Shown piece by piece: positions 975 to 41,856 of a stretch of 44,138 nucleotides of DNA; within the stretch, counting starts at the first letter, position 1; the number at the start of each line of letters is the position of its first letter. Source of the DNA: Escherichia phage vB_EcoS_XY2; the sequence record MN927226.1. One strand, given 5' to 3'. The position numbers and the translations under genes were made by a program. Under the pieces are notes generated by a model, which had not been told where the DNA came from, did not search any database, and worked only from the letters and a program-made list of their open reading frames with translations.

Positions 975-1005
975 ACTACGTCTCTCCTCTCGTTTGTGTA
1001 AATGA

Positions 1006-1034
1006 ATAGTAGCCTATTCTATCTTAGTGTGCAA
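1006..1034 (-). promoter_or_regulatory. sigma70-like promoter TTGCAC-N17-TACTAT with GAATAG-N4-CTATTC dyad
   Basis: Reverse complement reads TTGCAC, 17-bp spacer, TACTAT upstream of CDS 426..974; perfect inverted repeat 1004-1019. Confidence 0.45.
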
Positions 1035-2426: not shown

Positions 2427-2460
2427 AACCACCACTCCTCTGTCTCGTTTCGATAAGTGA

Positions 2461-2489
2461 ATAGTATCCTATTATATTGGGGTGTGCAA
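2461..2489 (-). promoter_or_regulatory. early promoter TTGCAC-N17-TACTAT (leftward operon)
   Basis: Reverse complement cttgcacaccccaatataataggatactattcac; near-identical to modules at 25334 and 34320. Confidence 0.5.
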
Positions 2490-6027: not shown

Positions 6028-6091
6028 GTCAATTACTCCTTAGTCAGTTGATATGTGAATAGTACCATATTAATTATTTTAGAAAAGCCCA

Positions 6092-6120
6092 TTGACATGT
6101 GAATAGTTCGCTATTATAGT
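6092..6120 (+). promoter_or_regulatory. sigma70 promoter TTGACA-N17-TATAGT with GAATAG-N4-CTATTA dyad in spacer
   Basis: Consensus -35, 17-bp spacer; dyad 6101-6116; second degenerate box 6057-6072. Confidence 0.6.
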
Positions 6121-8380: not shown

Positions 8381-8409
8381 TTGACACCTGAATAGTTAGC
8401 TATTATAGT
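8381..8409 (+). promoter_or_regulatory. sigma70 promoter TTGACA-N17-TATAGT with GAATAG-N4-CTATTA dyad
   Basis: Same architecture as 6092-6120; upstream of CDS 8464. Confidence 0.6.
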
Positions 8410-12230: not shown

Positions 12231-12559
12231 CTAAAGAGGGCCGCATCCAGAAATACGCAAAAGAGCGATTCGAGGCCATTGGTGGCCTCGTTCGTAAACT
12301 TTCCTACGAAGGACGTTCAGGCGCTCCTGACCTGCTGGCAATTCTACCCGGCGGCATCGTCTGGTTCGTCGAGGTGAAGAAAGACGAAAACACTAAGCCA
12401 GACCCGCACCAGCTACGGGAACACGAGCGTATACGTAAACGTGGCGCAAATGTTTTTGTCGTTGGTTCGATAAAACAGATTGACACCCTAATAGCAGACT
12501 ATTATAGTAAGCACATACCCCAACAATATAAGGAATTTAGAAATGAAACACGAATATGA
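12227..12559 (+). CDS. VRR-NUC domain nuclease
   Basis: GAPDLLAILPGGIVWFVEVKK core read as VRR-NUC. Confidence 0.7.
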   Translation: MTKEGRIQKYAKERFEAIGGLVRKLSYEGRSGAPDLLAILPGGIVWFVEVKKDENTKPDPHQLREHERIRKRGANVFVVGSIKQIDTLIADYYSKHIPQQYKEFRNETRI

Positions 12560-20742: not shown

Positions 20743-22143
20743 TTAACCGTCCACATTAAAATCAATACGAGTGATGTACTTGCTACCCCATGCAGAATCC
20801 GCTTGTGGGATGGTGGCGTAATCGCCAACTGCCGGAACAGTTACCACAGAGCCGTCGGAATACATAATGTCGATGCTTGTTGCGCCATTCATTGCCACTT
20901 TTGCTGATGCCGTTGGACGAGTTACCGGTGACTCCTCGGTCACTATCGGGGAGGAGGCAAACTCTGAAGGCTCCATCTGGATTAGGGCTATAATGAACCC
21001 ACTGACATCATCCCCTGTGAAGGTGAGGGAGTTAGACGGAGACAACATGTTTATCTGCGAATAAATCAATCCGCCGGAGTCGTTAGTGTCCGCTGACATT
21101 GAAACGTGATACCACCCACCACCAAGATTGCTTACGAACGACCTTGAGGTGTCGCCTGATATCAAATAGCCGGAGGCTAAGTCAACATAGGCATACTGGA
21201 AATTATCTAAAGCGGCTCGGTTGCCGATGGCTACCGCTGCCGACTGGTACTCATCTGCTTTTATAATAGCACTAATAGAGTATCTTGTTTCTTGTTCTGG
21301 GGCCTCTGCCTTGTTTATATAATGGTTACCTGATACCGACGTTGCGGTTAATTTAGCAGCATAAGTTTCTTGGAATAACGCCAAAGAACTCGCCGTGGTT
21401 GTTGTTCTGGCACGTGAAAATGATGTAGATAGTAAGTTGTTAGAATGTTCTACCACATTGGTAGCAGCCTTTTCCGGCGGCACACGCCCAACTGCAGTTC
21501 CGTCAATAAACGTAAGAGGCCATTCATTAGTGGCGGACTGCACAAGATTGCCGTTGCGGTTGATGTAATAAACCTGCGGCCCTTCATACACAATGCGGCT
21601 ATCAAGAGTCGACGCCAGAAGGTTAATCGGCGGATATCCGGCAGGGCCTTCATTACTCCAGATTCGTGGAAACGTTGATTGCGCGGTTCCGTAGGCTTTA
21701 AGGAAACACCCCAGCCCGTCACCATAGCAACCATACAAATCCGGCAGATTATTGACAAGACACTGGTTCTCGAGGTCCTGGAACGGGGATTTCTCGGCGG
21801 TTGCCGTGAAAGTAATCGTCCAGTTAATGCCGTCTTCGGTGGACTCCGCGATGGTGGACGTGATGGTTACCTGATAATCTTCAATACCCATGCCGAAGTC
21901 ATGCGCCATCCAGAAACTTGACGCGCCGCCGTCCACTTTCTCAAGGAACGACAGGAACGCCTGTCGCCCTAGTGCAGATGTAATCAGGGTTACGCTTATC
22001 GGGAACACATCATAATACGTGTCACGGCCTTGACGCACTCCGCCACCGGCTAAATCTACACTCCAGACGTTGTTGCGTCTGGTCATTGAGTAGCCTTTCG
22101 ATACCACCGGCTTAAGGCTACGTGGGAAATATAAGTCGCTCAT
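20743..22143 (-). CDS. minor/distal tail protein with long C-terminal extension
   Basis: 466-aa ORF directly after tape measure; TAATG coupling. Confidence 0.6.
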   Translation of the reverse strand: MSDLYFPRSLKPVVSKGYSMTRRNNVWSVDLAGGGVRQGRDTYYDVFPISVTLITSALGRQAFLSFLEKVDGGASSFWMAHDFGMGIEDYQVTITSTIAESTEDGINWTITFTATAEKSPFQDLENQCLVNNLPDLYGCYGDGLGCFLKAYGTAQSTFPRIWSNEGPAGYPPINLLASTLDSRIVYEGPQVYYINRNGNLVQSATNEWPLTFIDGTAVGRVPPEKAATNVVEHSNNLLSTSFSRARTTTTASSLALFQETYAAKLTATSVSGNHYINKAEAPEQETRYSISAIIKADEYQSAAVAIGNRAALDNFQYAYVDLASGYLISGDTSRSFVSNLGGGWYHVSMSADTNDSGGLIYSQINMLSPSNSLTFTGDDVSGFIIALIQMEPSEFASSPIVTEESPVTRPTASAKVAMNGATSIDIMYSDGSVVTVPAVGDYATIPQADSAWGSKYITRIDFNVDG

Positions 22144-24455
22144 TATTTAAACCCCGGCGCGTTTCTTGTGGCCTTGCGGGCCTTGCTAATCTTACTGTTG
22201 CTGTTCTGCAAAGATGCAGCAACTTGCTCTTCTATGATGATACGCAGACGGCCTTCATCATCCTGCTCGGTGGATACGTTGCCAATCTGACTCGATGTAT
22301 TATTTACAATGGTAACATTAGATGGGCCGGAAGAAGACCCGTTTTGCCCCATAATTTCTTTCATCTGCTGTGCGGTGCGTACACGTGACGCACCAGCGGG
22401 CATGATAACTTCTGGTTTACCACGTTCAGCGATGGTTGAAGCCTGCCCGGCTGATAACTGTCCGCCCTGTTCACGTGCGGACCTGATAGCGGAAATCTGC
22501 GCCATACCCGCCCCAACGGCAGCGGCGGCAGCTACAGGAGCCAGGAACGGACCAACTACAGGGATAGCCGCTGTGGACTTGTACGCCTCGATAGCCGCGG
22601 TGTACGTGGCGATAGTGGCCTGTACGATAGCGAATGCCTTATACGCGCCAGAAGCCTCGCCCAAAGCCGAACCGATGTTTGAAGCCATGTTACCGAAGGC
22701 GGTTGCCGTTGCGTCGGCACGCTTCGTAGCATACTGCTCATTGATGGCGTTAAGCGCCGCCTGGTACTGCTTCTCACTAATAAGCCCCTGCTCACGGTAC
22801 TTATCCGCTACCTCCAGTTTCTGCTGTTCCTGGATGTCGAGAAGCTCAAGCTCAGTAGCGTTCTGACCCATAATCTGCGCCATGAAGTCCTCGCCTTTCT
22901 GCTGCTTTTCCTGCTGCTCTTTTCTTTTCTTATCCAGTTCTTCCTGTCTGGCCTGCTCGGCTGTGAGCATAATTTGAGTTTTGGCGTTTTCATACTGCTG
23001 CTGGCTTATCGTTCCGGCGCGGTTGAACTCCTCCAGTTTCGCCAGTTTCTGTTCTTCCGCAGCGGTAATGCGCGAAATCTCATCTCCGGTTGTGCGGTCG
23101 ACAGTAGCCAGGAAATCTTCCGCCGCTTTTTTCTGACGTTGTGCCGCTGTTTCTTCGCGTTTGGCTTGTGCCGCCAGACGTTCCTCGTTCGATTTAGCCT
23201 CGCGGTCGGCCTTCTCTTTCTCGGTCTTGTCAATGCGGGCGATGTCTTGCTGCGCTTCCGCGTCGCGGGCCGCATTATACGCGGCTATCTGTTCTTTGGT
23301 GACAGCTTCACGTTTAGCGAACGCCTGCTTATCCAGTTCAGCTTGCGCACGGATACGCTCGCGGTCACTTAAGATAGCGATTTGCTGGTTTTTGACGATA
23401 GCTTCGTTCTGTTCCTGGAATCTCTGCGTTGTTGAGTTGACGTTACGACCAAGATTCTTTTGGGCCTCTGCCGCCGCGTTTGCTGACTTCTCCGCGTTCT
23501 CCAGTGCCGTGGCGTTCTTGTTGGCGTTGTCCGTCAGGCGGATAAGTTCCGGGTTCAACTGTTTTGTGTTACCGAGCCAGTCGGTAAACACATCGGCGAT
23601 GCGACGGGCATTCTCGGCGGTTGGCTCTTTGTTAAACGCACTCTGCGCCGCTATCATCTCCAGCGCCTGGTCACGGTTAACTCCGAACTTACTGCTAAGC
23701 TCCGCGATATTCTGCGCCAGCATGTTGACGCCTACGATGTTGCCCTCGTAAGTGCCGCCGAGTTTTTCTAATGTGTCGCCTACATCTGCGCCCTTAGAGA
23801 CTAATGCATCATACTGGCTAATCGCCGATGCCGTGGAGGCTTTCCACGTTTCCCATGATTCGGCATCTTCACGAACAGCTTTAGCGGTTTGCTGCGCGAT
23901 AAGGTCCGCGTTAGCCTTAGCCAGAGCAAGCTGAGTCTCTGCTGCTTCTCTGCTGATTTGGGTAAGCTGAATAAGGCCGTCTGTCAGTTCAAGAGAACCG
24001 GATGCCGTTTGCTGGAAGGTGTCTTTTAACTGTTTCTGCGCGGCTTCGAGGTCTTTTGAACTGCCTTCTGCTTCGGTTAGCGATTTGTACAGGACACCAC
24101 CGATTGCTGACGCAAGAGCAATTACGGCCCCAAGCACCGCGCCACCAGGGCCGAAAGCACCCGCAAGCTGAGAGCCTTGTTGCCCGATTGCTACGAATGC
24201 AGACGTGCCGGACTGCAACTGGACGACCATGTCCTGCACCTGGAAGCCTACCTGCCCGGCGGCGTTACGGAATTTAGCGAAACCGTCAGAAGCCGCTTTA
24301 GACGTAGCGGAGTTTACTTTATTAACATCCGGCGTTAGTTTGTTTACGGATGTGTCCGCACGGTCTGCGGATGCCGCCATAGCGTCAAGCTGTTTAGCGG
24401 CTACATCAGCGCCTTCTGTTTTTACTCTGGCAATTAGGGAAGCCGTATCAGCCAT
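22143..24455 (-). CDS. tail tape measure protein
   Basis: 770-aa Ala/Gln/Glu-rich coiled-coil ORF after chaperone pair; ATG 24455 with GAGGG RBS. Confidence 0.85.
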   Translation of the reverse strand: MADTASLIARVKTEGADVAAKQLDAMAASADRADTSVNKLTPDVNKVNSATSKAASDGFAKFRNAAGQVGFQVQDMVVQLQSGTSAFVAIGQQGSQLAGAFGPGGAVLGAVIALASAIGGVLYKSLTEAEGSSKDLEAAQKQLKDTFQQTASGSLELTDGLIQLTQISREAAETQLALAKANADLIAQQTAKAVREDAESWETWKASTASAISQYDALVSKGADVGDTLEKLGGTYEGNIVGVNMLAQNIAELSSKFGVNRDQALEMIAAQSAFNKEPTAENARRIADVFTDWLGNTKQLNPELIRLTDNANKNATALENAEKSANAAAEAQKNLGRNVNSTTQRFQEQNEAIVKNQQIAILSDRERIRAQAELDKQAFAKREAVTKEQIAAYNAARDAEAQQDIARIDKTEKEKADREAKSNEERLAAQAKREETAAQRQKKAAEDFLATVDRTTGDEISRITAAEEQKLAKLEEFNRAGTISQQQYENAKTQIMLTAEQARQEELDKKRKEQQEKQQKGEDFMAQIMGQNATELELLDIQEQQKLEVADKYREQGLISEKQYQAALNAINEQYATKRADATATAFGNMASNIGSALGEASGAYKAFAIVQATIATYTAAIEAYKSTAAIPVVGPFLAPVAAAAAVGAGMAQISAIRSAREQGGQLSAGQASTIAERGKPEVIMPAGASRVRTAQQMKEIMGQNGSSSGPSNVTIVNNTSSQIGNVSTEQDDEGRLRIIIEEQVAASLQNSNSKISKARKATRNAPGFK

Positions 24456-25226
24456 CTTCTCTGCCCTCAAATATTCCGTCTAAGCCCATGATAACCTCGG
24501 CTTCGAACAAACTTATGCCGTAACCGGCGACATCACGAAACGCTACCAAATCTTGCCATTTGAGCGCATCGCGCGGGATTATAACGATAGTATCATCTGT
24601 TTCGCGCTGTAGGAATTTAATGGCACGGTATTTCTCGAACACGTCGATAAGAGAAACGGGGCATTCCGGCCCCGTCGCTTCTTTCATCTGCGGTTCTTTA
24701 ATCACGCCCATTGCAATCAAAGCCGCCTGGTGGCCCGCCGCGATGTCGTCGAATTGCTTACGTTTGTGGCGGTCGACAAAGCACCATTGCGCAAATTCAT
24801 ACAGCGCTTTTACTTTTCCGAGAGTTTCTCACGGCTATCGGTGTGATGCTTAACTACGGCCTCTGCCAACCCACTGTACTGGTCGAACAGGTTAGCAAGC
24901 GCCTCTTTGCTGAATGGTTCGTCGAATGACCAACCGGTGACGATTTCCACGGCAAGCTGCTTGTTCAGGTCCATCACCCGCCAGCCCTTCTCATCATTAT
25001 AGCGCGCCCAGTTATTCAGCGCCTCGCACTCTTTATCTAATGGCGCAAGTTCTTCCGTAAGGCGTCGAATTGCCGTTGTGTAGGCACGGCCCGCACGAAC
25101 ACCAGCGTCACAATCGGGGCCGATGACCTGCAACCATTCACCGGAGTCTTTACCACTCGGCAGAAGGATAGGCATTTTAGTACCGGCGGCGTGGCGGTCA
25201 GCAAAATAGAAATCAGAAAGTTTCAT
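24448..25226 (-). CDS. tail assembly chaperone G-T fusion via putative -1 frameshift
   Basis: -1 frame open from 24828 to 24448 with no initiator ATG until 24711; heptamer GGAAAAG at G 3' end. Confidence 0.45.
24810..25226 (-). CDS. tail assembly chaperone (lambda G-like)
   Basis: 138-aa ORF upstream of tape measure; AAAGGA RBS. Confidence 0.6.
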   Translation of the reverse strand: MKLSDFYFADRHAAGTKMPILLPSGKDSGEWLQVIGPDCDAGVRAGRAYTTAIRRLTEELAPLDKECEALNNWARYNDEKGWRVMDLNKQLAVEIVTGWSFDEPFSKEALANLFDQYSGLAEAVVKHHTDSREKLSEK

Positions 25227-25333
25227 TCTTTAATCCTTTGGTTAAGAGGTTACAGGTTAAGGTTAATGCGCCAGACGGGAACCACCCGCTTTTCGTGTGC
25301 GACACTAGGCGCAAACTTATTCTAACACACTAC

Positions 25334-25362
25334 TTGCGCGCCCCAATATAATAGGGTACTAT
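25334..25362 (+). promoter_or_regulatory. early-type promoter TTGCGC-N17-TACTAT for plus-strand island
   Basis: ttgcgcgccccaatataatagggtactattca; near-identical to 34320-34350. Confidence 0.55.
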
Positions 25363-25390
25363 TCACCAGTAACTTACTGAGGGTATAATT

Positions 25391-25717
25391 ATGCGTAAAT
25401 TAGTATTAGCTCTGGGGTTTATGTCTTTTGCTACTTTTGGAGCCCCGTGCGAACAGGTATTTAGTGAATCTGTTCTTATGACTTCTGGTGTGCTCGAGAA
25501 AGCCGACCCTACTATTGTAAAGGCGTTCAAGGACTCTACAGTTCGCGAGTGTGAGGCCGCCGTGGAGGTTGGTAAATCGGGCCTACCCCCGCAGGCCGTA
25601 ACCTACACAGTGATACGTTCGGTAGAGAAAAACGGAGATGCTTTCTATAGCCTACTGACAGCCACCCGTCTGCAAATGGTAATGACAGGGTGGGCGATAG
25701 GCGCAGAAAGTAAATAG
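25391..25717 (+). CDS. secreted/periplasmic protein (108 aa)
   Basis: N-terminal MRKLVLALGFMSFATFGAP signal-like segment, two Cys; GAGGG RBS. Confidence 0.65.
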   Translation: MRKLVLALGFMSFATFGAPCEQVFSESVLMTSGVLEKADPTIVKAFKDSTVRECEAAVEVGKSGLPPQAVTYTVIRSVEKNGDAFYSLLTATRLQMVMTGWAIGAESK

Positions 25718-25782
25718 TTGCCTTTATTTAAAGGAATCCACTGTGGTTAAATAGGACAAATCCTAAACACGAGGAAGTAAGC

Positions 25783-26913
25783 ATGGCCCAGAAGAAAATA
25801 ACCGACGAACAGTTACAGGAAGAATTGAACGCCGGGATGAAGAATGTAGACATCGCCCGTAAATACGGCATCTCAGACCGAGTTATTCGTATCCGTAAAG
25901 CGAAGCTGGCTAAGAAAGGTGTAGGCCACGGGCGTGACGTTAGCCACCTTGTCCCAGACGGCTACAAGATTAAAGGGACGTCGTCTCTGGTAGACGAGTT
26001 CGGCAATACTAAGTTGCAATGGGTTAAGACAGACACCGACGCTGAACGTCAGGTCGAGTTGATGAAAGCCGTGATTGAAGGCATGAAGTCAGAGATTACG
26101 CCAGTTGCGCCGGCTAAAGCGACTCGAGCCAAACGCGACGACAAGCTACTCAATCTTTACACGGTATCTGATTTCCATCTCGGTATGCTTGCCTGGGCCG
26201 ACGAGAGCGGCGACGACTGGGATATAAAGATTGCGGAAGACCTGTTCTCTCGTTGGTTCGACGCGGCGTTTCAGAAAGCACCGGATGCAGGAACAGGAGT
26301 TATTAACCTGCTGGGTGATTTCGCGCACTTCGATAGTCTGGATGCCGTTACACCTGAGTCGCGTCACGTGTTGGACGCAGACACTCGCTACCAGAAACTC
26401 GTCCGCTACATGATTCGTATGGTACGCCGTGTTGTAGATATGGCACTGGTTAAACATAAAAATGTTCGCTTGCTTATCGTACAGGGGAACCATGACCCTG
26501 TAGGCTCTGTATGGCTGGCTGAAATGTTCACAGTTTTATATTCGAACGACAGCCGAGTGATTGTCGATACGTCGCCGGATGTTTACAAGATGGTGCAACA
26601 CGGAAAAACGACGTTGTTCTTTCACCACGGGCATAAGGCGCGATTCGATGCTATCGAACCGGTTATGATTGCCAAGTTCCGCAAAGCGTTCGGTGAGAGT
26701 GTTTACAGCTACGCCCACGTAGGCCACCTGCACCACCAGAAGATTGTAGAAAGCCGTAACATGATTGTTGAGCAACACCGCACCTTAGCGGCGAAAGACG
26801 CCTACGCCTCGCGCGGCGGATGGATGTCAGGCCGTAGTGCAAATGTAATTACTTATAGCGCCGAATATGGCGAGGTCGCACGTTTAACTATTTCACCGGA
26901 GATGCTGGGATGA
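25783..26913 (+). CDS. HTH domain fused to calcineurin-like metallophosphoesterase
   Basis: Ordered motifs SDFHLG, LLGDFAHFD, VQGNHDP, FFHHGH, HVGHLHH after an HTH-like N-terminus. Confidence 0.75.
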   Translation: MAQKKITDEQLQEELNAGMKNVDIARKYGISDRVIRIRKAKLAKKGVGHGRDVSHLVPDGYKIKGTSSLVDEFGNTKLQWVKTDTDAERQVELMKAVIEGMKSEITPVAPAKATRAKRDDKLLNLYTVSDFHLGMLAWADESGDDWDIKIAEDLFSRWFDAAFQKAPDAGTGVINLLGDFAHFDSLDAVTPESRHVLDADTRYQKLVRYMIRMVRRVVDMALVKHKNVRLLIVQGNHDPVGSVWLAEMFTVLYSNDSRVIVDTSPDVYKMVQHGKTTLFFHHGHKARFDAIEPVMIAKFRKAFGESVYSYAHVGHLHHQKIVESRNMIVEQHRTLAAKDAYASRGGWMSGRSANVITYSAEYGEVARLTISPEMLG

Positions 26914-27140
26914 CTTCAAAATACAACCGAACAATGACAAACACTCACGGCAGCACTATGACCGTAGACGTTTACGATGTTCTCCGTGCCTTCGACATCC
27001 GTGACCCCGCACTACAGCACGCATTGAAGAAGTTATTGTGCATGGGTCTTCGCGGGCATAAGGACACCGGAACCGACTTAGCAGAAGCAATTGAAAGTCT
27101 GGAGAAGTTACGGGAGTATCGAAGTAATATTGATGAGTGA
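26910..27140 (+). CDS. hypothetical protein (76 aa)
   Basis: ORF track; ATGA overlap with upstream stop. Confidence 0.55.
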   Translation: MTSKYNRTMTNTHGSTMTVDVYDVLRAFDIRDPALQHALKKLLCMGLRGHKDTGTDLAEAIESLEKLREYRSNIDE

Positions 27141-27143
27141 GAA

Positions 27144-27165
27144 AAAGGCCCCTTTCGGGGCCTTT
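27144..27165. terminator. bidirectional terminator AAAGGCCCC-tttc-GGGGCCTTT
   Basis: Perfect 9-bp stem between island end and major tail gene stop. Confidence 0.7.
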
Positions 27166-27168
27166 TCC

Positions 27169-28335
27169 TTACGCGTAGCTAATACGCTGTATTACAATAG
27201 AAGATTGGTATTGATTGCCTGTGGACTGTCCTTCTATGCTCTGAGTGATTGACTCAGGTCCGCCGATCTCTGGCGTAACCGCCGTGAGTTCTGCGCGTTT
27301 CAGACTGAAAGACATAGCCCCGTTTACCCCCGCCAGAATAGAGTTAATCTCTACCTGCTGTTCGTTGATAAACTTCTGAATCATAGCCATGTCATACAGC
27401 TTACCGGAGATGGAGAAGGTGTTAGCTGCGCGGCTACGTTCCACAAACGCAACGTTAGAGTTGCCGAGTTCGAACTGTGCGGACGCGCTGTTGTCGTTGG
27501 TGATGGTAAGGCTATCACAACGCAACGGCGTAGAGCCATCGAACACGGAAACGTCAACCGAAGAGAATGGCTCATCACCAAAAGTAATAGATGAGAAGTT
27601 GGAACCGGTCGGCGGCGTAGTGAGAATCTCCTGACTGCGACCGATGAATGGGAAGCTGCCGGTTACCATAGCGTTAACTGCCTGCTCAATAGTGAAACCA
27701 GAAACTTCCACGCCTTTGGTTAACGTGTACGCGTCAGTGCCGCCGCACTGGCCTTTGTACCAGGTAAGGATAGAGAACGTCTTACACGTGTTACCGGTTT
27801 CCAGCGTGTCGCCAGTTTTAGCCTTACTAGTTTTTGTCTCGGTGGTCAGGGTGTGTTGGATACCAGCACCAGTAACGACCGTAGCTGTTACTGCAGTAAC
27901 GATAAATGGTTTTGCGTTATCGCCTGTTAAGTCGGTAAACGCAATCAGGTCGCCTACCACAACTCCGTCAGTGATAAAGCTGCCGGTGGCACGTGTGAAC
28001 GTCTTGCCAGCCGGTGCGACGGTAATCGATAACCCTGACAGAGATGCGCCAGCCTGCCACGTAGAGCCTAAAGCCCCGGCTAACCAGTCGTCCTGGCTTT
28101 TAGAGCTAAGCTCAATTGCGTATTCACCGCTAACCTGTTTGTTACCGGTGCGGATGGATGTAGTTTCACGGCTGCCGTCCAGTTCGTTGGAGGTCAGCGT
28201 GTCGCGGGTAATAGCAGGAACGCCGCCAGTGTTACGCAACGGCGACCATACCGGGTTAGTCGGTGTTACGCCCGGGGTAGTTTCCGCCACATAGAATTGC
28301 GCGGTATTCGCGCCCTTAAAAGGAGTTGTAGCCAT
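27169..28335 (-). CDS. major tail protein
   Basis: 388-aa ORF before chaperone/tape-measure genes, followed by strong terminator; ATG 28335 with AAGAGG RBS. Confidence 0.65.
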   Translation of the reverse strand: MATTPFKGANTAQFYVAETTPGVTPTNPVWSPLRNTGGVPAITRDTLTSNELDGSRETTSIRTGNKQVSGEYAIELSSKSQDDWLAGALGSTWQAGASLSGLSITVAPAGKTFTRATGSFITDGVVVGDLIAFTDLTGDNAKPFIVTAVTATVVTGAGIQHTLTTETKTSKAKTGDTLETGNTCKTFSILTWYKGQCGGTDAYTLTKGVEVSGFTIEQAVNAMVTGSFPFIGRSQEILTTPPTGSNFSSITFGDEPFSSVDVSVFDGSTPLRCDSLTITNDNSASAQFELGNSNVAFVERSRAANTFSISGKLYDMAMIQKFINEQQVEINSILAGVNGAMSFSLKRAELTAVTPEIGGPESITQSIEGQSTGNQYQSSIVIQRISYA

Positions 28336-34319: not shown

Positions 34320-34348
34320 TTGCGCACCCCAATATAATAGGGTACTAT
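34320..34348 (+). promoter_or_regulatory. early-type promoter TTGCGC-N17-TACTAT for DnaN-like gene
   Basis: ttgcgcaccccaatataatagggtactatcca; near-identical to 25334-25364. Confidence 0.55.
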
Positions 34349-34375
34349 CCAGTTAACTTAAACAGGAGATGAGAA

Positions 34376-41806: not shown

Positions 41807-41835
41807 AATATAATAGGGTCATAGATAATAGTCAA
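41807..41835 (-). promoter_or_regulatory. sigma70-like promoter TTGACT-N17-TATATT
   Basis: Read on minus strand; spacer contains CCCTATTA element. Confidence 0.45.
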
Positions 41836-41856
41836 CTAGTCATCGCAGAAAATAGA

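What the first reader, a model, noticed from the sequence alone, without database searches (positions are those of the whole stretch)
25243..25270. Four direct TAACC repeats upstream of the tail chaperone gene
The minus strand reads TTAACC-TTAACC-TG-TAACC-TCT-TAACC immediately upstream of the chaperone RBS, in the divergent gap facing the island promoter. It may be an iteron-like protein-binding array or a late-gene regulatory element; it could also be chance low complexity.
Basis: seen in the sequence. Interest (0 to 1): 0.25.

Follow-up and report, generated by a model that had tools for sequence, protein, structure and literature searches.

The report
Repeat tail of a structured mRNA leader
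The TAACC repeats are not a DNA iteron: they are the single-stranded tail of a conserved folded RNA leader in front of the phage tail-chaperone gene, one repeat base-pairs with a hairpin loop of that fold, and the fold is a diverged relative of the orphan 'int-alpA' RNA motif of bacterial genomic islands.

Summary
The repeat is real: four TAACC on the minus strand at 25240-25265, 3-4 nt left of the stated coordinates. It is the only such 5-mer cluster in the window; about 1% of simulated windows have one for any word. The window is a Kagunavirus. In 77 distinct leaders of related phages, copies 2-4 are 73-100% conserved per column. Copy 1 is variable and changes by 6-nt slippage (3, 4 or 5 ACC words). 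Directly upstream lies a three-way-junction RNA (25267-25313) with compensatory changes in all three helices. It matches Rfam RF02996 (int-alpA) over the full model but below threshold (31.3 vs 35.8 bits). The loop of its second hairpin (UGGUU) pairs with copy 2: when the loop becomes UGGUC or CGGUC, copy 2 becomes GACCA or GACCG, in at least four separate lineages. Copy 4, which abuts the Shine-Dalgarno sequence, can form the same pairing (98% of sequences). Bona fide bacterial int-alpA elements have the same plan: the loop is complementary to a downstream word and to the SD region. Best reading: a cis-acting RNA leader with a pseudoknot that sets translation of the chaperone/tape-measure operon. 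The structure is shown; the regulatory effect is inferred. It is a new variant of a known orphan motif, of moderate interest.

The parts
25345..25365 (-). Copy of the phage's repeated sigma70-type promoter motif (TGAATAGTACCCTATTATATT). The -10-like TATATT is at 25345-25350 and the -35 is weak (GTTACT). Candidate upstream promoter of the chaperone operon. Its palindromic core may also serve the divergent island genes.
   Evidence: About 8-9 copies in the window against 0.9 expected. The line-up shows TTGACA-17-TATAGT in several copies. It matches the PHIRE consensus reported for Kagunaviruses (PMC9825357).
25319..25327 (-). Extended -10-like element TGTTAGAAT (TAGAAT = 25319-25324), 5-6 nt before the outer stem. 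This would put the transcription start at or next to the first base of the fold (inferred).
   Evidence: Kept across distant clades as TAGAAT, TAAACT, TATTCT, TAAAAT or TAATAT, always with A2 and T6, 3-6 nt before the outer stem. Not found by the consensus scanner because the -35 is weak.
25267..25313 (-). Three-way-junction RNA. Outer stem 25308-25313 with 25267-25272; hairpin 1 25295-25305; junction GAAAA 25290-25294; hairpin 2 25275-25289.
   Evidence: MFE and centroid fold. RNAalifold gives 12 pairs, 11 of them compensatory. Pair counts: 91.9% paired against 33-48% when slid, and 15 of 20 pairs changed on both sides. Rfam RF02996 int-alpA 31.3 bits, E 1e-4, model 1-71.
25280..25284 (-). 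Loop of hairpin 2, UGGUU: the complement of the AACC(A) words.
   Evidence: G40, G41 and U42 are invariant or nearly so in 77 leaders. Position 43 is U in 68 and C in 8, always matched by A or G in copy 2.
25261..25265 (-). TAACC copy 1: part of the 8-9 nt linker between the outer stem and the pseudoknot partner. Not conserved; appears to be a 6-nt slippage duplicate of copy 2.
   Evidence: 58-69% column conservation. Replaced by ATTTTCC, GTCAATC, ATTTATCG and others in close relatives. L214 has one extra TTAACC.
25254..25259 (-). TAACC copy 2 (UAACCU): 3' strand of the pseudoknot with the hairpin-2 loop. 4 bp in this phage, 5 bp where the next base is A or G.
   Evidence: Pair 43-71 is UA in 68, CG in 8 and unpaired in 0. 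Pair 39-75 is UA 41, UG 5, CG 4. The double changes arose in at least 4 lineages on the chaperone tree.
25248..25252 (-). TAACC copy 3: CC invariant, rest variable (AACC, ACCC, AGCC, TACC). No covariation with the loop; role unexplained.
25239..25244 (-). TAACC copy 4 (UAACCA), abutting the SD. The most conserved copy and a possible alternative partner of the loop (5 bp here).
   Evidence: A87, C88 and C89 are invariant. 98.2% of cells can pair with the loop. Pair 43-86 is UA 67, CG 5, UG 1, other 3.
25224..25238 (-). Shine-Dalgarno AAGGA (25234-25238), 7-nt spacer, and ATG (25224-25226) of the tail assembly chaperone gene (24810-25226). The gene is followed by the second chaperone frame and the tape measure gene (22143-24470).
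   Evidence: annotation of Bas72.
27142..27166 (.). Context: hairpin AAAAGGCCCC-GAAA-GGGGCCTTTT plus T, directly after the major-tail stop codon (27169-27171). Likely a bidirectional terminator, so the chaperone operon needs its own promoter in this phage.
   Evidence: Read from the sequence. The consensus scan missed it.

Best explanation
The TAACC words are the G-poor 3' tail of a roughly 90-nt cis-acting RNA leader of the tail-assembly-chaperone/tape-measure mRNA. The leader starts with a three-way junction that is a diverged relative of the int-alpA motif (RF02996). The UGGUU loop of its second hairpin docks on the first conserved ACC word (copy 2) and forms a pseudoknot. Copy 1 is only the linker that lets the tail reach the loop. 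Copies 3 and 4 continue the unpaired A/C-rich tract up to the Shine-Dalgarno sequence. Docked on copy 2, the fold sits about 30 nt upstream of the start codon, outside the ribosome's footprint, and the ribosome-binding site lies in an unstructured landing zone. Because copy 4 carries the same word (AACCA) right next to the SD, the loop could instead dock there, which would pull the fold onto the ribosome-binding site. The element would therefore set, and possibly switch, translation initiation of the chaperone gene. Shown: the junction, the loop-copy 2 pairing, the conservation of copies 2-4, the strand, and the position relative to the SD. Inferred: the transcription start, the effect on translation, the alternative docking, and any trigger.
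For: Structure: (91.9% paired against 33-48% slid; 11 of 12 RNAalifold pairs compensatory). Pseudoknot: pair 43-71 is UA 68, CG 8, other 0, with at least 4 independent double changes plus one at the other end of the helix. L228 keeps pairing by U-G wobble (AGCCA). RNA on the chaperone-sense strand: 27-28 G-U pairs at 34-48 would be C-A on the other strand. Tied to the chaperone start, not to a promoter gap: the element follows the major-tail stop codon directly in L022, L165 and L167. The spacing from copy 4 to SD to ATG is fixed. The tail is 4.6% G against 33% in the junction and is unpaired in the centroid fold. The AACC-rich leader is unique among 44 SD-preceded ORFs, and there is a single copy of the element in the window. 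Family logic: in 18 of 18 tested bacterial int-alpA members (48.8-74.4 bits) and 71 distinct leaders, the loop is complementary to a word 8-12 nt after the outer stem, with at least 10 different pair types (CCTTC/GAAGG, CCCTG/CAGGG, CCCTA/TAGGG, AGCCT/AGGCT, CCGTG/CACGG, CCTAC/GTAGG and others). The observed helix is 5.32 against a null of 4.16 (0 of 500 permutations). The loop is also complementary to the SD segment once the first word is excluded: 4.52 against 3.88 (0 of 1000). Copy 4 can pair with the loop in 98.2% of cells, with 5 both-sided changes.
Against: There are no expression data. The transcription start is inferred from sequence only, and there are two candidate promoters. The pseudoknot is short: 4 bp in this phage, with a 5-nt loop unless the closing G-C pair opens. 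Copy 3 keeps an invariant CC but shows no covariation with the loop, so pairing does not explain every copy. A clade of chaperone relatives (L170-L180 and others) has no junction yet still has AACCA twice in its short leader. That suggests the words may have a role independent of the loop. Covariation for loop-copy 4 comes from essentially one clade, and 3 loop-C sequences keep AACC there. The association between bacterial loop class and SD type may partly reflect shared ancestry.
Confidence: 0.6

Rival explanations
1. Sequence-specific single-strand platform. The AACC(A) words are recognised directly, by ribosomal protein S1 or the 30S subunit as an A/C-rich unstructured enhancer or standby site, or by a phage or host RNA-binding protein that titrates chaperone/tape-measure synthesis. 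This would resemble T4 gp32 spreading from a 5' pseudoknot over repeated UUAAA words. On this view the loop-copy 2 pairing is secondary.
For: The tail is 4.6% G and unpaired in the centroid fold. Copy 3 has an invariant CC without covariation. The junction-less L170-L180 clade still has AACCA twice before the start codon. The 7-8 nt spacing of ACC words is kept across clades.
Against: It does not explain why loop and copy 2 change together at least 4 times. It also does not explain why bacterial relatives use quite different words that always match their own loop. No candidate protein was identified.
Confidence: 0.2
2. Processed small RNA acting on repeated targets, as in P1/P7 C4 and P4 CI. 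The three-way junction would be cut out of the leader as a stable RNA whose loop binds the AACC words of nascent or other transcripts in cis or trans. This would block the ribosome-binding site and possibly cause Rho-dependent polarity on the tape-measure operon.
For: Rfam classifies int-alpA as a candidate sRNA. The logic of a loop complementary to several downstream words, the last at the RBS, is that of C4/CI (from memory of that literature). Bacterial int-alpA islands are P4-like, and some carry C4/isrK RNAs.
Against: There is no Rfam C4 or isrK match in the phage region even at E up to 10. Only one gene in the window has AACC-rich targets. There is no evidence of processing sites. Complementarity of 4-5 nt is too short for efficient trans pairing.
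Confidence: 0.08
3. Mainly an mRNA-stability or insulation element. The junction would be a 5'-terminal (or intercistronic) protective fold that shields the chaperone/tape-measure mRNA from RNase E and RppH, or stabilises the 3' end of the upstream major-tail or integrase mRNA. The tail would simply be a spacer selected to stay unpaired.
For: The fold begins at the inferred +1. In L022, L165, L167 and in bacteria it starts 8-20 nt after the upstream stop codon. All 10 upstream ORFs tested were integrases.
Against: A spacer would not keep invariant ACC words nor co-vary with a loop. The highly conserved junction nucleotides (CUAG, CGAAAAGCGG, CCUGG) are not needed for a generic protective hairpin.
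Confidence: 0.07
4. DNA-level array, the first reader's idea: direct repeats bound by a phage DNA-binding protein (iteron, operator or roadblock) controlling late transcription.
For: Direct repeats in a divergent promoter gap. The gap also holds a copy of a repeated promoter motif.
Against: Units are 5-6 nt with 6/7/8-nt spacing. The position is downstream of both candidate -10 elements. The array is retained where there is no gap or promoter. It co-varies with an RNA loop and tolerates G-U, which is not symmetric in DNA. It is found only once in the genome.
Confidence: 0.04

Closest known systems
int-alpA RNA motif (Rfam RF02996; Weinberg et al. 2017, PMC5737381), an orphan candidate sRNA of proteobacterial genomic islands
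   Same: Same three-way-junction plan and near-identical junction nucleotides (CUAG, CGAAAAGCGGG, CCCGyCUGG). Full-length model match, 1-71. A reciprocal weak match of the phage model to bacterial members. In both, the hairpin-2 loop is complementary to a word 8-12 nt after the outer stem, a further copy lies at or next to the SD of the next gene, and the element sits just after an upstream gene's stop codon.
   Different: The score is below Rfam's gathering threshold: 24.7-33.5 bits in phages against 35.8. The loop is shorter (5-7 nt against 7-10). The polarity of the loop-tail helix is inverted: loop UGGUU with tail AACCA, instead of loop CCUUC with tail GAAGG. The distal copy abuts the SD rather than being the SD, and there is no SD-presenting third hairpin. 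There are three to five copies instead of two. The context is a lytic siphovirus tail operon, not a P4-type integrase island.
C4 antisense RNA of phages P1/P7 and CI RNA of P4 (Rfam RF01695). From memory: a processed RNA whose loops pair with repeated target words in the same operon, one covering an RBS.
   Same: The logic of a compact folded RNA whose loop is complementary to several direct-repeat words downstream, the last at a ribosome-binding site. Both belong to phages or P4-like elements, and C4/isrK occur in the same bacterial islands as int-alpA.
   Different: No sequence or structure match (no RF01695 hit). The complementarity is far shorter. No evidence of RNase P processing. The context is a tail gene, not immunity.
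H-type pseudoknot leaders that position or sequester an SD, such as the preQ1-I/II and SAM-II riboswitches and the T4 gene 32 autoregulatory leader (from general knowledge)
   Same: A hairpin loop pairs with a 3' tail just upstream of the SD. As in T4 gene 32, a structured 5' element is followed by an unstructured tract of repeated short words that runs into the RBS.
   Different: No Rfam match to any riboswitch class. No ligand or protein partner is known. The pseudoknot is attached to a three-way junction. The paired word is repeated.
Iterons and direct-repeat operators (DNA)
   Same: Short direct repeats in an intergenic region.
   Different: Unit length, spacing, location in a tail module, absence of a nearby initiator or origin, and strand-specific RNA covariation all argue against it.

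Membership tests
int-alpA RNA (RF02996) | Score at or above Rfam's gathering threshold (35.8 bits) | tested here: not met
   Window 31.3 bits (E 9.6e-5 in 400 nt, 0.011 in the whole window). Related phage loci 24.7-33.5 bits. Bacterial members 48.8-74.4 bits.
int-alpA RNA (RF02996) | Three-way junction: outer stem enclosing two hairpins, supported by covariation | tested here: met
int-alpA RNA (RF02996) | Conserved junction nucleotides CUAG / CGAAAAGCGGG / CCCGCCUGG | tested here: met
   The window has CUAG, CGAAAAGCGGG and CCCGUCUGG, one change. These are invariant or nearly invariant columns in 77 phage leaders.
int-alpA RNA (RF02996) | Genomic context: just downstream of a P4-type integrase gene in a genomic island | tested here: not met
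   Bacterial members: 10 of 10 tested upstream ORFs are integrases, with the stop codon 13-20 nt before the element. In the phage the element lies upstream of the tail assembly chaperone, after the major tail gene or an inserted island.
int-alpA RNA (RF02996) | Hairpin-2 loop complementary to a downstream word. This feature was seen here in the family; whether the original description includes it could not be checked. | tested here: met
   Phage. Bacteria. The sequence of the helix differs (UGGUU/AACCA against CCUUC/GAAGG).
DNA iterons | Tandem repeats of about 17-22 bp in helical phase, next to an origin or AT-rich region and a cognate initiator gene | tested here: not met
   5-6 nt units with start-to-start spacing of 6, 7 and 8 nt. 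The neighbours are tail and island genes.
C4 / CI antisense RNA (RF01695) | Match to the covariance model; processed stable RNA | tested here: not met
   No hit at E up to 10 in 25100-25500, although the model finds true C4 RNAs in L059 and L087. Processing is not testable with these tools.
Known riboswitch classes with SD-proximal pseudoknots (preQ1, SAM-II, fluoride, ZTP) | Match to the class model | tested here: not met
   No such hit in the region or the window.

The most novel reading that the evidence does not exclude
The int-alpA fold is not an sRNA. It would be a widespread cis-acting translational riboregulator shared by P4-type genomic islands and lytic Guernseyvirinae-like siphophages. 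Its invariant junction would bind an unknown ligand or protein and make the hairpin loop shift register between decoy words and the SD-proximal word. The TAACC array would be the phage's multi-step version of that switch, tuning the chaperone/tape-measure dose relative to major tail protein.
Probability: 0.2. Interest if true: 0.75.

Novelty: new variant of a known kind. Interest (0 to 1): 0.5.

Why it matters
int-alpA is one of many orphan structured RNAs with no known function, and Rfam files it as a candidate sRNA. This work gives three new leads. First, the fold sits immediately upstream of a start codon in both bacteria and phages. Second, its hairpin loop pairs with a repeated downstream word, which the structure line of the Rfam model does not show. 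Third, a diverged version heads the chaperone/tape-measure operon of a large, easily handled group of E. coli and Salmonella phages (Kagunavirus, Jersey-like and relatives). That makes the function directly testable with simple reporter fusions and phage mutants. It also bears on how siphophages set the ratio between major tail protein and the low-abundance chaperone and tape-measure proteins. For annotation, it explains a conserved 'empty' gap and flags a probably spurious small ORF call over it.

Tried and rejected
1. Generic repeat finder on the gap: found only an unrelated 11-nt pair and missed the 5-nt words.
2. Consensus promoter/terminator scan: found only a plus-strand TATAAT that overlaps the 108-aa ORF's SD spacer and a weak hairpin. 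It missed both minus-strand -10 elements and the terminator after the major tail gene.
3. Single-sequence folding z-score: not significant (z = -0.56). The structure is supported by covariation, not by stability.
4. Literature: the Weinberg 2017 main text has nothing on int-alpA and its supplements are not held. The only other paper merely lists the motif. Kagunavirus genome papers give only predicted promoters. One search failed on a syntax error.
5. Pfam census of the genes downstream of bacterial int-alpA elements: essentially no families, so there is no functional clue from cargo.
6. MAFFT alignment of bacterial elements for a formal pseudoknot count: the tails were out of register because the linkers vary in length, so it was not used. 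Position-free permutation tests were used instead.
7. Loop-copy 3 pairing: tested, no covariation.
8. 'AACC before the SD is a general RBS context in this phage': rejected.
9. Terminator reading of the Rfam consensus U-run after the outer stem: rejected. It is the pyrimidine-rich linker to the pseudoknot partner.

Full report
**1. The observation**

The minus strand of the window reads ...GGCGCA-TTAACC-TTAACC-TG-TAACC-TCT-TAACC-AAAGGATTAAAGA-ATG. Exact TAACC words lie at 25261-65, 25255-59, 25248-52 and 25240-44. It ends one base before the SD (AAGGA, 25234-38) of a 138-aa ORF (24810-25226, minus).

That ORF is the tail assembly chaperone of a Kagunavirus. The window is 99% identical to Escherichia phages Bas72 and Bas73 and 94% to K1H. 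The Bas72 annotation gives chaperone, second chaperone frame and tape measure downstream. Upstream on the other strand is a three-gene island, and beyond it lies the major tail gene on the minus strand.

The cluster is the only 5-mer in the window with four non-overlapping same-strand copies within 27 nt. Such a cluster arose for any word in 3 of 300 Markov simulations. The expectation for TAACC is 4e-4.

**2. Conservation**

BLAST with the gap alone showed that the non-coding DNA itself (about 25207-25337) stays roughly 74% identical out to Salmonella Jersey-like phages. I collected about 190 loci around chaperone homologues from IMG/VR and metagenomes. These gave 77 distinct leaders, which I aligned (A3). 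The chaperones in this set are as little as 42-48% identical to the query.

| Copy | Per-column conservation | Notes |
|---|---|---|
| 1 | 58-69% | Replaced by unrelated sequence in near-identical phages |
| 2 | 90-100% | First conserved ACC word |
| 3 | 73-100% | CC invariant |
| 4 | 92-100% | ACC invariant; abuts the SD |

One phage (L214) has an extra TTAACC. Leaders have 3 (42 cases), 4 (30) or 5 (2) ACC words. So three words are conserved, and the fourth is a slippage-prone duplicate. The tract between the fold and the SD is 4.6% G, against 33% in the fold.

**3. What lies next to the repeats**

Immediately 5' of the repeats is a three-way junction (25267-25313): an outer stem enclosing two hairpins. 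Single-sequence folding finds it, although its stability is unremarkable (z = -0.56). Comparative evidence is strong:

- RNAalifold predicts it independently, with 11 of 12 pairs compensatory.
- In the pair count for the junction plus the loop-copy 2 helix, 91.9% of cells pair, against 33-48% when partners are slid. 15 of 20 pairs changed on both sides, and no shuffle reached the observed values.
- The outer stem is GCGCC/GGCGC here but GCGTC/GACGC, GCGGC/GCCGC, GCCGTGG/CCACGGC, GCCGAGG/CCTCGGC, TCGTGA/TCACGA and others elsewhere.
- Frequent G-U pairs (27-28 at one position) work only on the chaperone-sense strand.

Rfam matches this block to RF02996 'int-alpA RNA' over the whole model at 31.3 bits, E 1e-4, below the gathering score of 35.8. 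It is the only such match in the window. The same sub-threshold match recurs at the same place in 10 of the 16 loci scanned. A covariance model built from the phage leaders finds exactly one copy in the window (106 bits). It finds none in the chaperone relatives that had appeared to lack the element.

**4. The repeats pair with the fold**

The loop of hairpin 2 is UGGUU, the complement of AACCA. Across the 76 distinct rows of the alignment:

- **Copy 2.** The last loop base and the first base of copy 2 are U-A in 68 and C-G in 8, and never unpaired. At the other end of the helix the pairs are U-A 41, U-G 5, C-G 4 and unpaired 26.
- **Independent origins.** On a chaperone tree the U-to-C / A-to-G double change appears in at least four separate places, each beside UGGUU/AACC relatives: L028, the L043+L045 clade, L234 and L014. 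The CGGUC/GACCG change is a fifth event.
- **Wobble variant.** L228 has AGCCA, which still pairs through a U-G wobble.
- **Copy 3.** The same loop tested against copy 3 shows no covariation and no more pairing than shuffles.
- **Copy 4.** 98.2% of cells can pair and 5 show both-sided changes, but essentially from one clade.

So a loop-copy 2 pseudoknot is well supported. Docking on copy 4 is possible but weakly tested. Copy 3 is not explained by pairing.

**5. The bacterial relatives show the same logic**

A pattern search for the junction core in one genome per species gave 89 hits, mostly in Beta- and Gammaproteobacteria. All 18 loci tested are bona fide RF02996 members at 48.8-74.4 bits. 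The element starts 13-20 nt after the stop codon of a same-strand upstream ORF. All 10 of those ORFs tested are P4-type tyrosine integrases. It is followed about 36-45 nt later by the start of a highly variable orphan gene.

In these sequences the hairpin-2 loop is complementary to a word 8-12 nt after the outer stem, with many different pair types: CCTTC/GAAGG, CCCTG/CAGGG, CCCTA/TAGGG, AGCCT/AGGCT, CCGTG/CACGG, CCTAC/GTAGG, CCTCA/TGAGG, ATCCCG/CGGGAT and more. The longest Watson-Crick helix between a loop and its own tail averages 5.32 nt, against 4.16 for permuted loops (0 of 500).

A second, similar word forms the SD, usually in the loop of a small covarying hairpin. With the first word excluded, the SD segment is still more complementary to its own loop than to others: 4.52 against 3.88 (0 of 1000). 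CCTTC loops go with GAAGG SDs in 15 of 18 cases, and CCCTG loops with AGGG/GGGG SDs in 13 of 14. Shared ancestry may inflate that last association.

The structure line of the Rfam model leaves the tail unpaired. I could not check whether the original paper drew the pseudoknot. The phage model finds the bacterial elements weakly (12-27 bits). So the two groups share a plan and junction sequence but are clearly diverged. In the phage the loop-tail helix has the opposite polarity: G/U-rich loop and A/C-rich tail.

**6. Transcription context (inferred)**

Right after the major-tail stop codon there is a strong hairpin flanked by A and T runs (27142-27166). It is probably a bidirectional terminator between the convergent major tail gene and the island. 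The chaperone operon of this phage therefore probably needs its own promoter.

The gap offers two candidates on the minus strand. The first is a copy of the phage's repeated sigma70-type promoter motif (25345-25365; about 8-9 copies in the window). Kagunavirus papers describe this as the PHIRE 'phage promoter' (PMC9825357). The second is an extended -10-like TGTTAGAAT (25319-25327). Distant clades keep this second element, with the diagnostic A2 and T6, 3-6 nt before the outer stem. That would start the RNA at the first base of the fold.

In L022, L165 and L167 there is no island and no such -10. There the fold follows the major-tail stop codon by about 8 nt. The element therefore belongs to the chaperone start region, not to a divergent promoter gap.

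**7. Mechanism**

The shown facts fit a cis-acting translational leader. With the loop docked on copy 2, the fold lies about 29-33 nt upstream of the AUG, outside a 30S footprint, and the RBS sits in a G-poor unpaired tract. Copy 1 is the 8-9 nt linker needed to reach the loop, and the bacterial linker has the same length. Because the same word recurs 7 and 15 nt further on, the last time abutting the SD, the loop could re-dock and bring the fold onto the RBS. In the bacterial relatives the distal word is the SD itself.

I commit to 'pseudoknotted leader that sets chaperone/tape-measure translation' at about 0.6. A true register-shifting switch with an unknown trigger at the invariant junction is about 0.2.

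Rivals:
- Direct recognition of the ACC words by the ribosome, S1 or a protein. This is supported by copy 3 and by a junction-less clade that still has AACCA twice.
- A processed C4/CI-like small RNA.
- A stability or insulation element.
- A DNA operator or iteron, the least likely.

**8. Verdict**

The interpretation as a DNA iteron is not supported. 'Late-gene regulatory element' is right in spirit, but at the RNA level. The element fails two membership tests for RF02996, score and context, while sharing its fold, junction sequence and loop-tail logic. I therefore file it as a new variant of a known but functionally orphan kind. Interest is moderate (0.5). It is not a new class, but it turns an orphan motif into a testable cis-regulatory hypothesis in tractable phages.

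Noticed in passing
window 1003-1023(+), 2458-2478(+), 6056-6076(+), 6100-6120(+), 8389-8409(+), 12488-12508(+), 25345-25365(-), 34331-34351(-), about 41822-41842(-): A family of about 8-9 promoter-like motifs (TGAATAGTAnCCTATTATAkT). Four copies have a consensus TTGACA -35 and a 17-nt spacer, so they look like plain strong sigma70 promoters. Three copies (2458, 25365, 34351) have weak -35 hexamers and share a downstream GGGGYGYGCAAG. They may form a separately regulated class. Kagunavirus papers call these 'phage-RNA-polymerase promoters' (PHIRE), which seems unwarranted.
   Followed up: partly
window 27142-27166: A strong GC hairpin flanked by A and T runs directly after the major-tail stop codon and the end of the island's last gene. 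Probably a bidirectional terminator between convergent transcripts. The consensus terminator scan missed it.
   Followed up: partly
window 25391-27140 (+): A three-gene island transcribed against the tail module. It holds a 108-aa ORF with a signal-peptide-like N-terminus, a 376-aa metallophosphoesterase annotated as 'DNA repair exonuclease', and a 76-aa ORF. It is inserted exactly between the major tail gene and the RNA leader. In Bas74, K1ind2 and K1ind3 the first gene is replaced by a 'superinfection immunity protein'. L022, L165 and L167 have no island. It looks like a moron or accessory-gene hotspot.
   Followed up: partly
L001 6560-6652 (Bas72_0024), about window 25259-25351 (+): A 30-aa 'hypothetical protein' is annotated in Bas72 on the strand opposite the conserved RNA fold and repeats. 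It is probably a spurious gene call.
   Followed up: no
L170, L171, L174, L176, L178, L180, L242, L245, L277 (upstream of the chaperone start): A clade with no three-way junction, whose short leader still reads GCAACCAACAAATCAACCATAGCGGG..ATG (AACCA twice). This is either a remnant of a deleted element or a sign that the words act without the loop.
   Followed up: partly
L052-L131 (bacterial int-alpA loci): The element sits 13-20 nt after the stop codon of a P4-type integrase gene and directly before an SD presented in a small covarying hairpin. The downstream genes are extremely diverse orphans: 4 of 51 have any Pfam hit, all marginal. This looks like a cis leader of the first cargo gene rather than a free-standing sRNA. 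L059 and L087 also carry C4 antisense and isrK RNAs, and tRNA or tmRNA genes flank several loci.
   Followed up: partly
L214 (leader, 512-603): Five TAACC words instead of four, from one extra TTAACC unit. This is direct evidence of 6-nt slippage in the linker part of the tract.
   Followed up: yes
window 27713-27722 (-): A second exact TAACCAAAGG inside the major tail gene. Compatible with chance: 4 matches at up to 1 mismatch against 2.55 expected.
   Followed up: no
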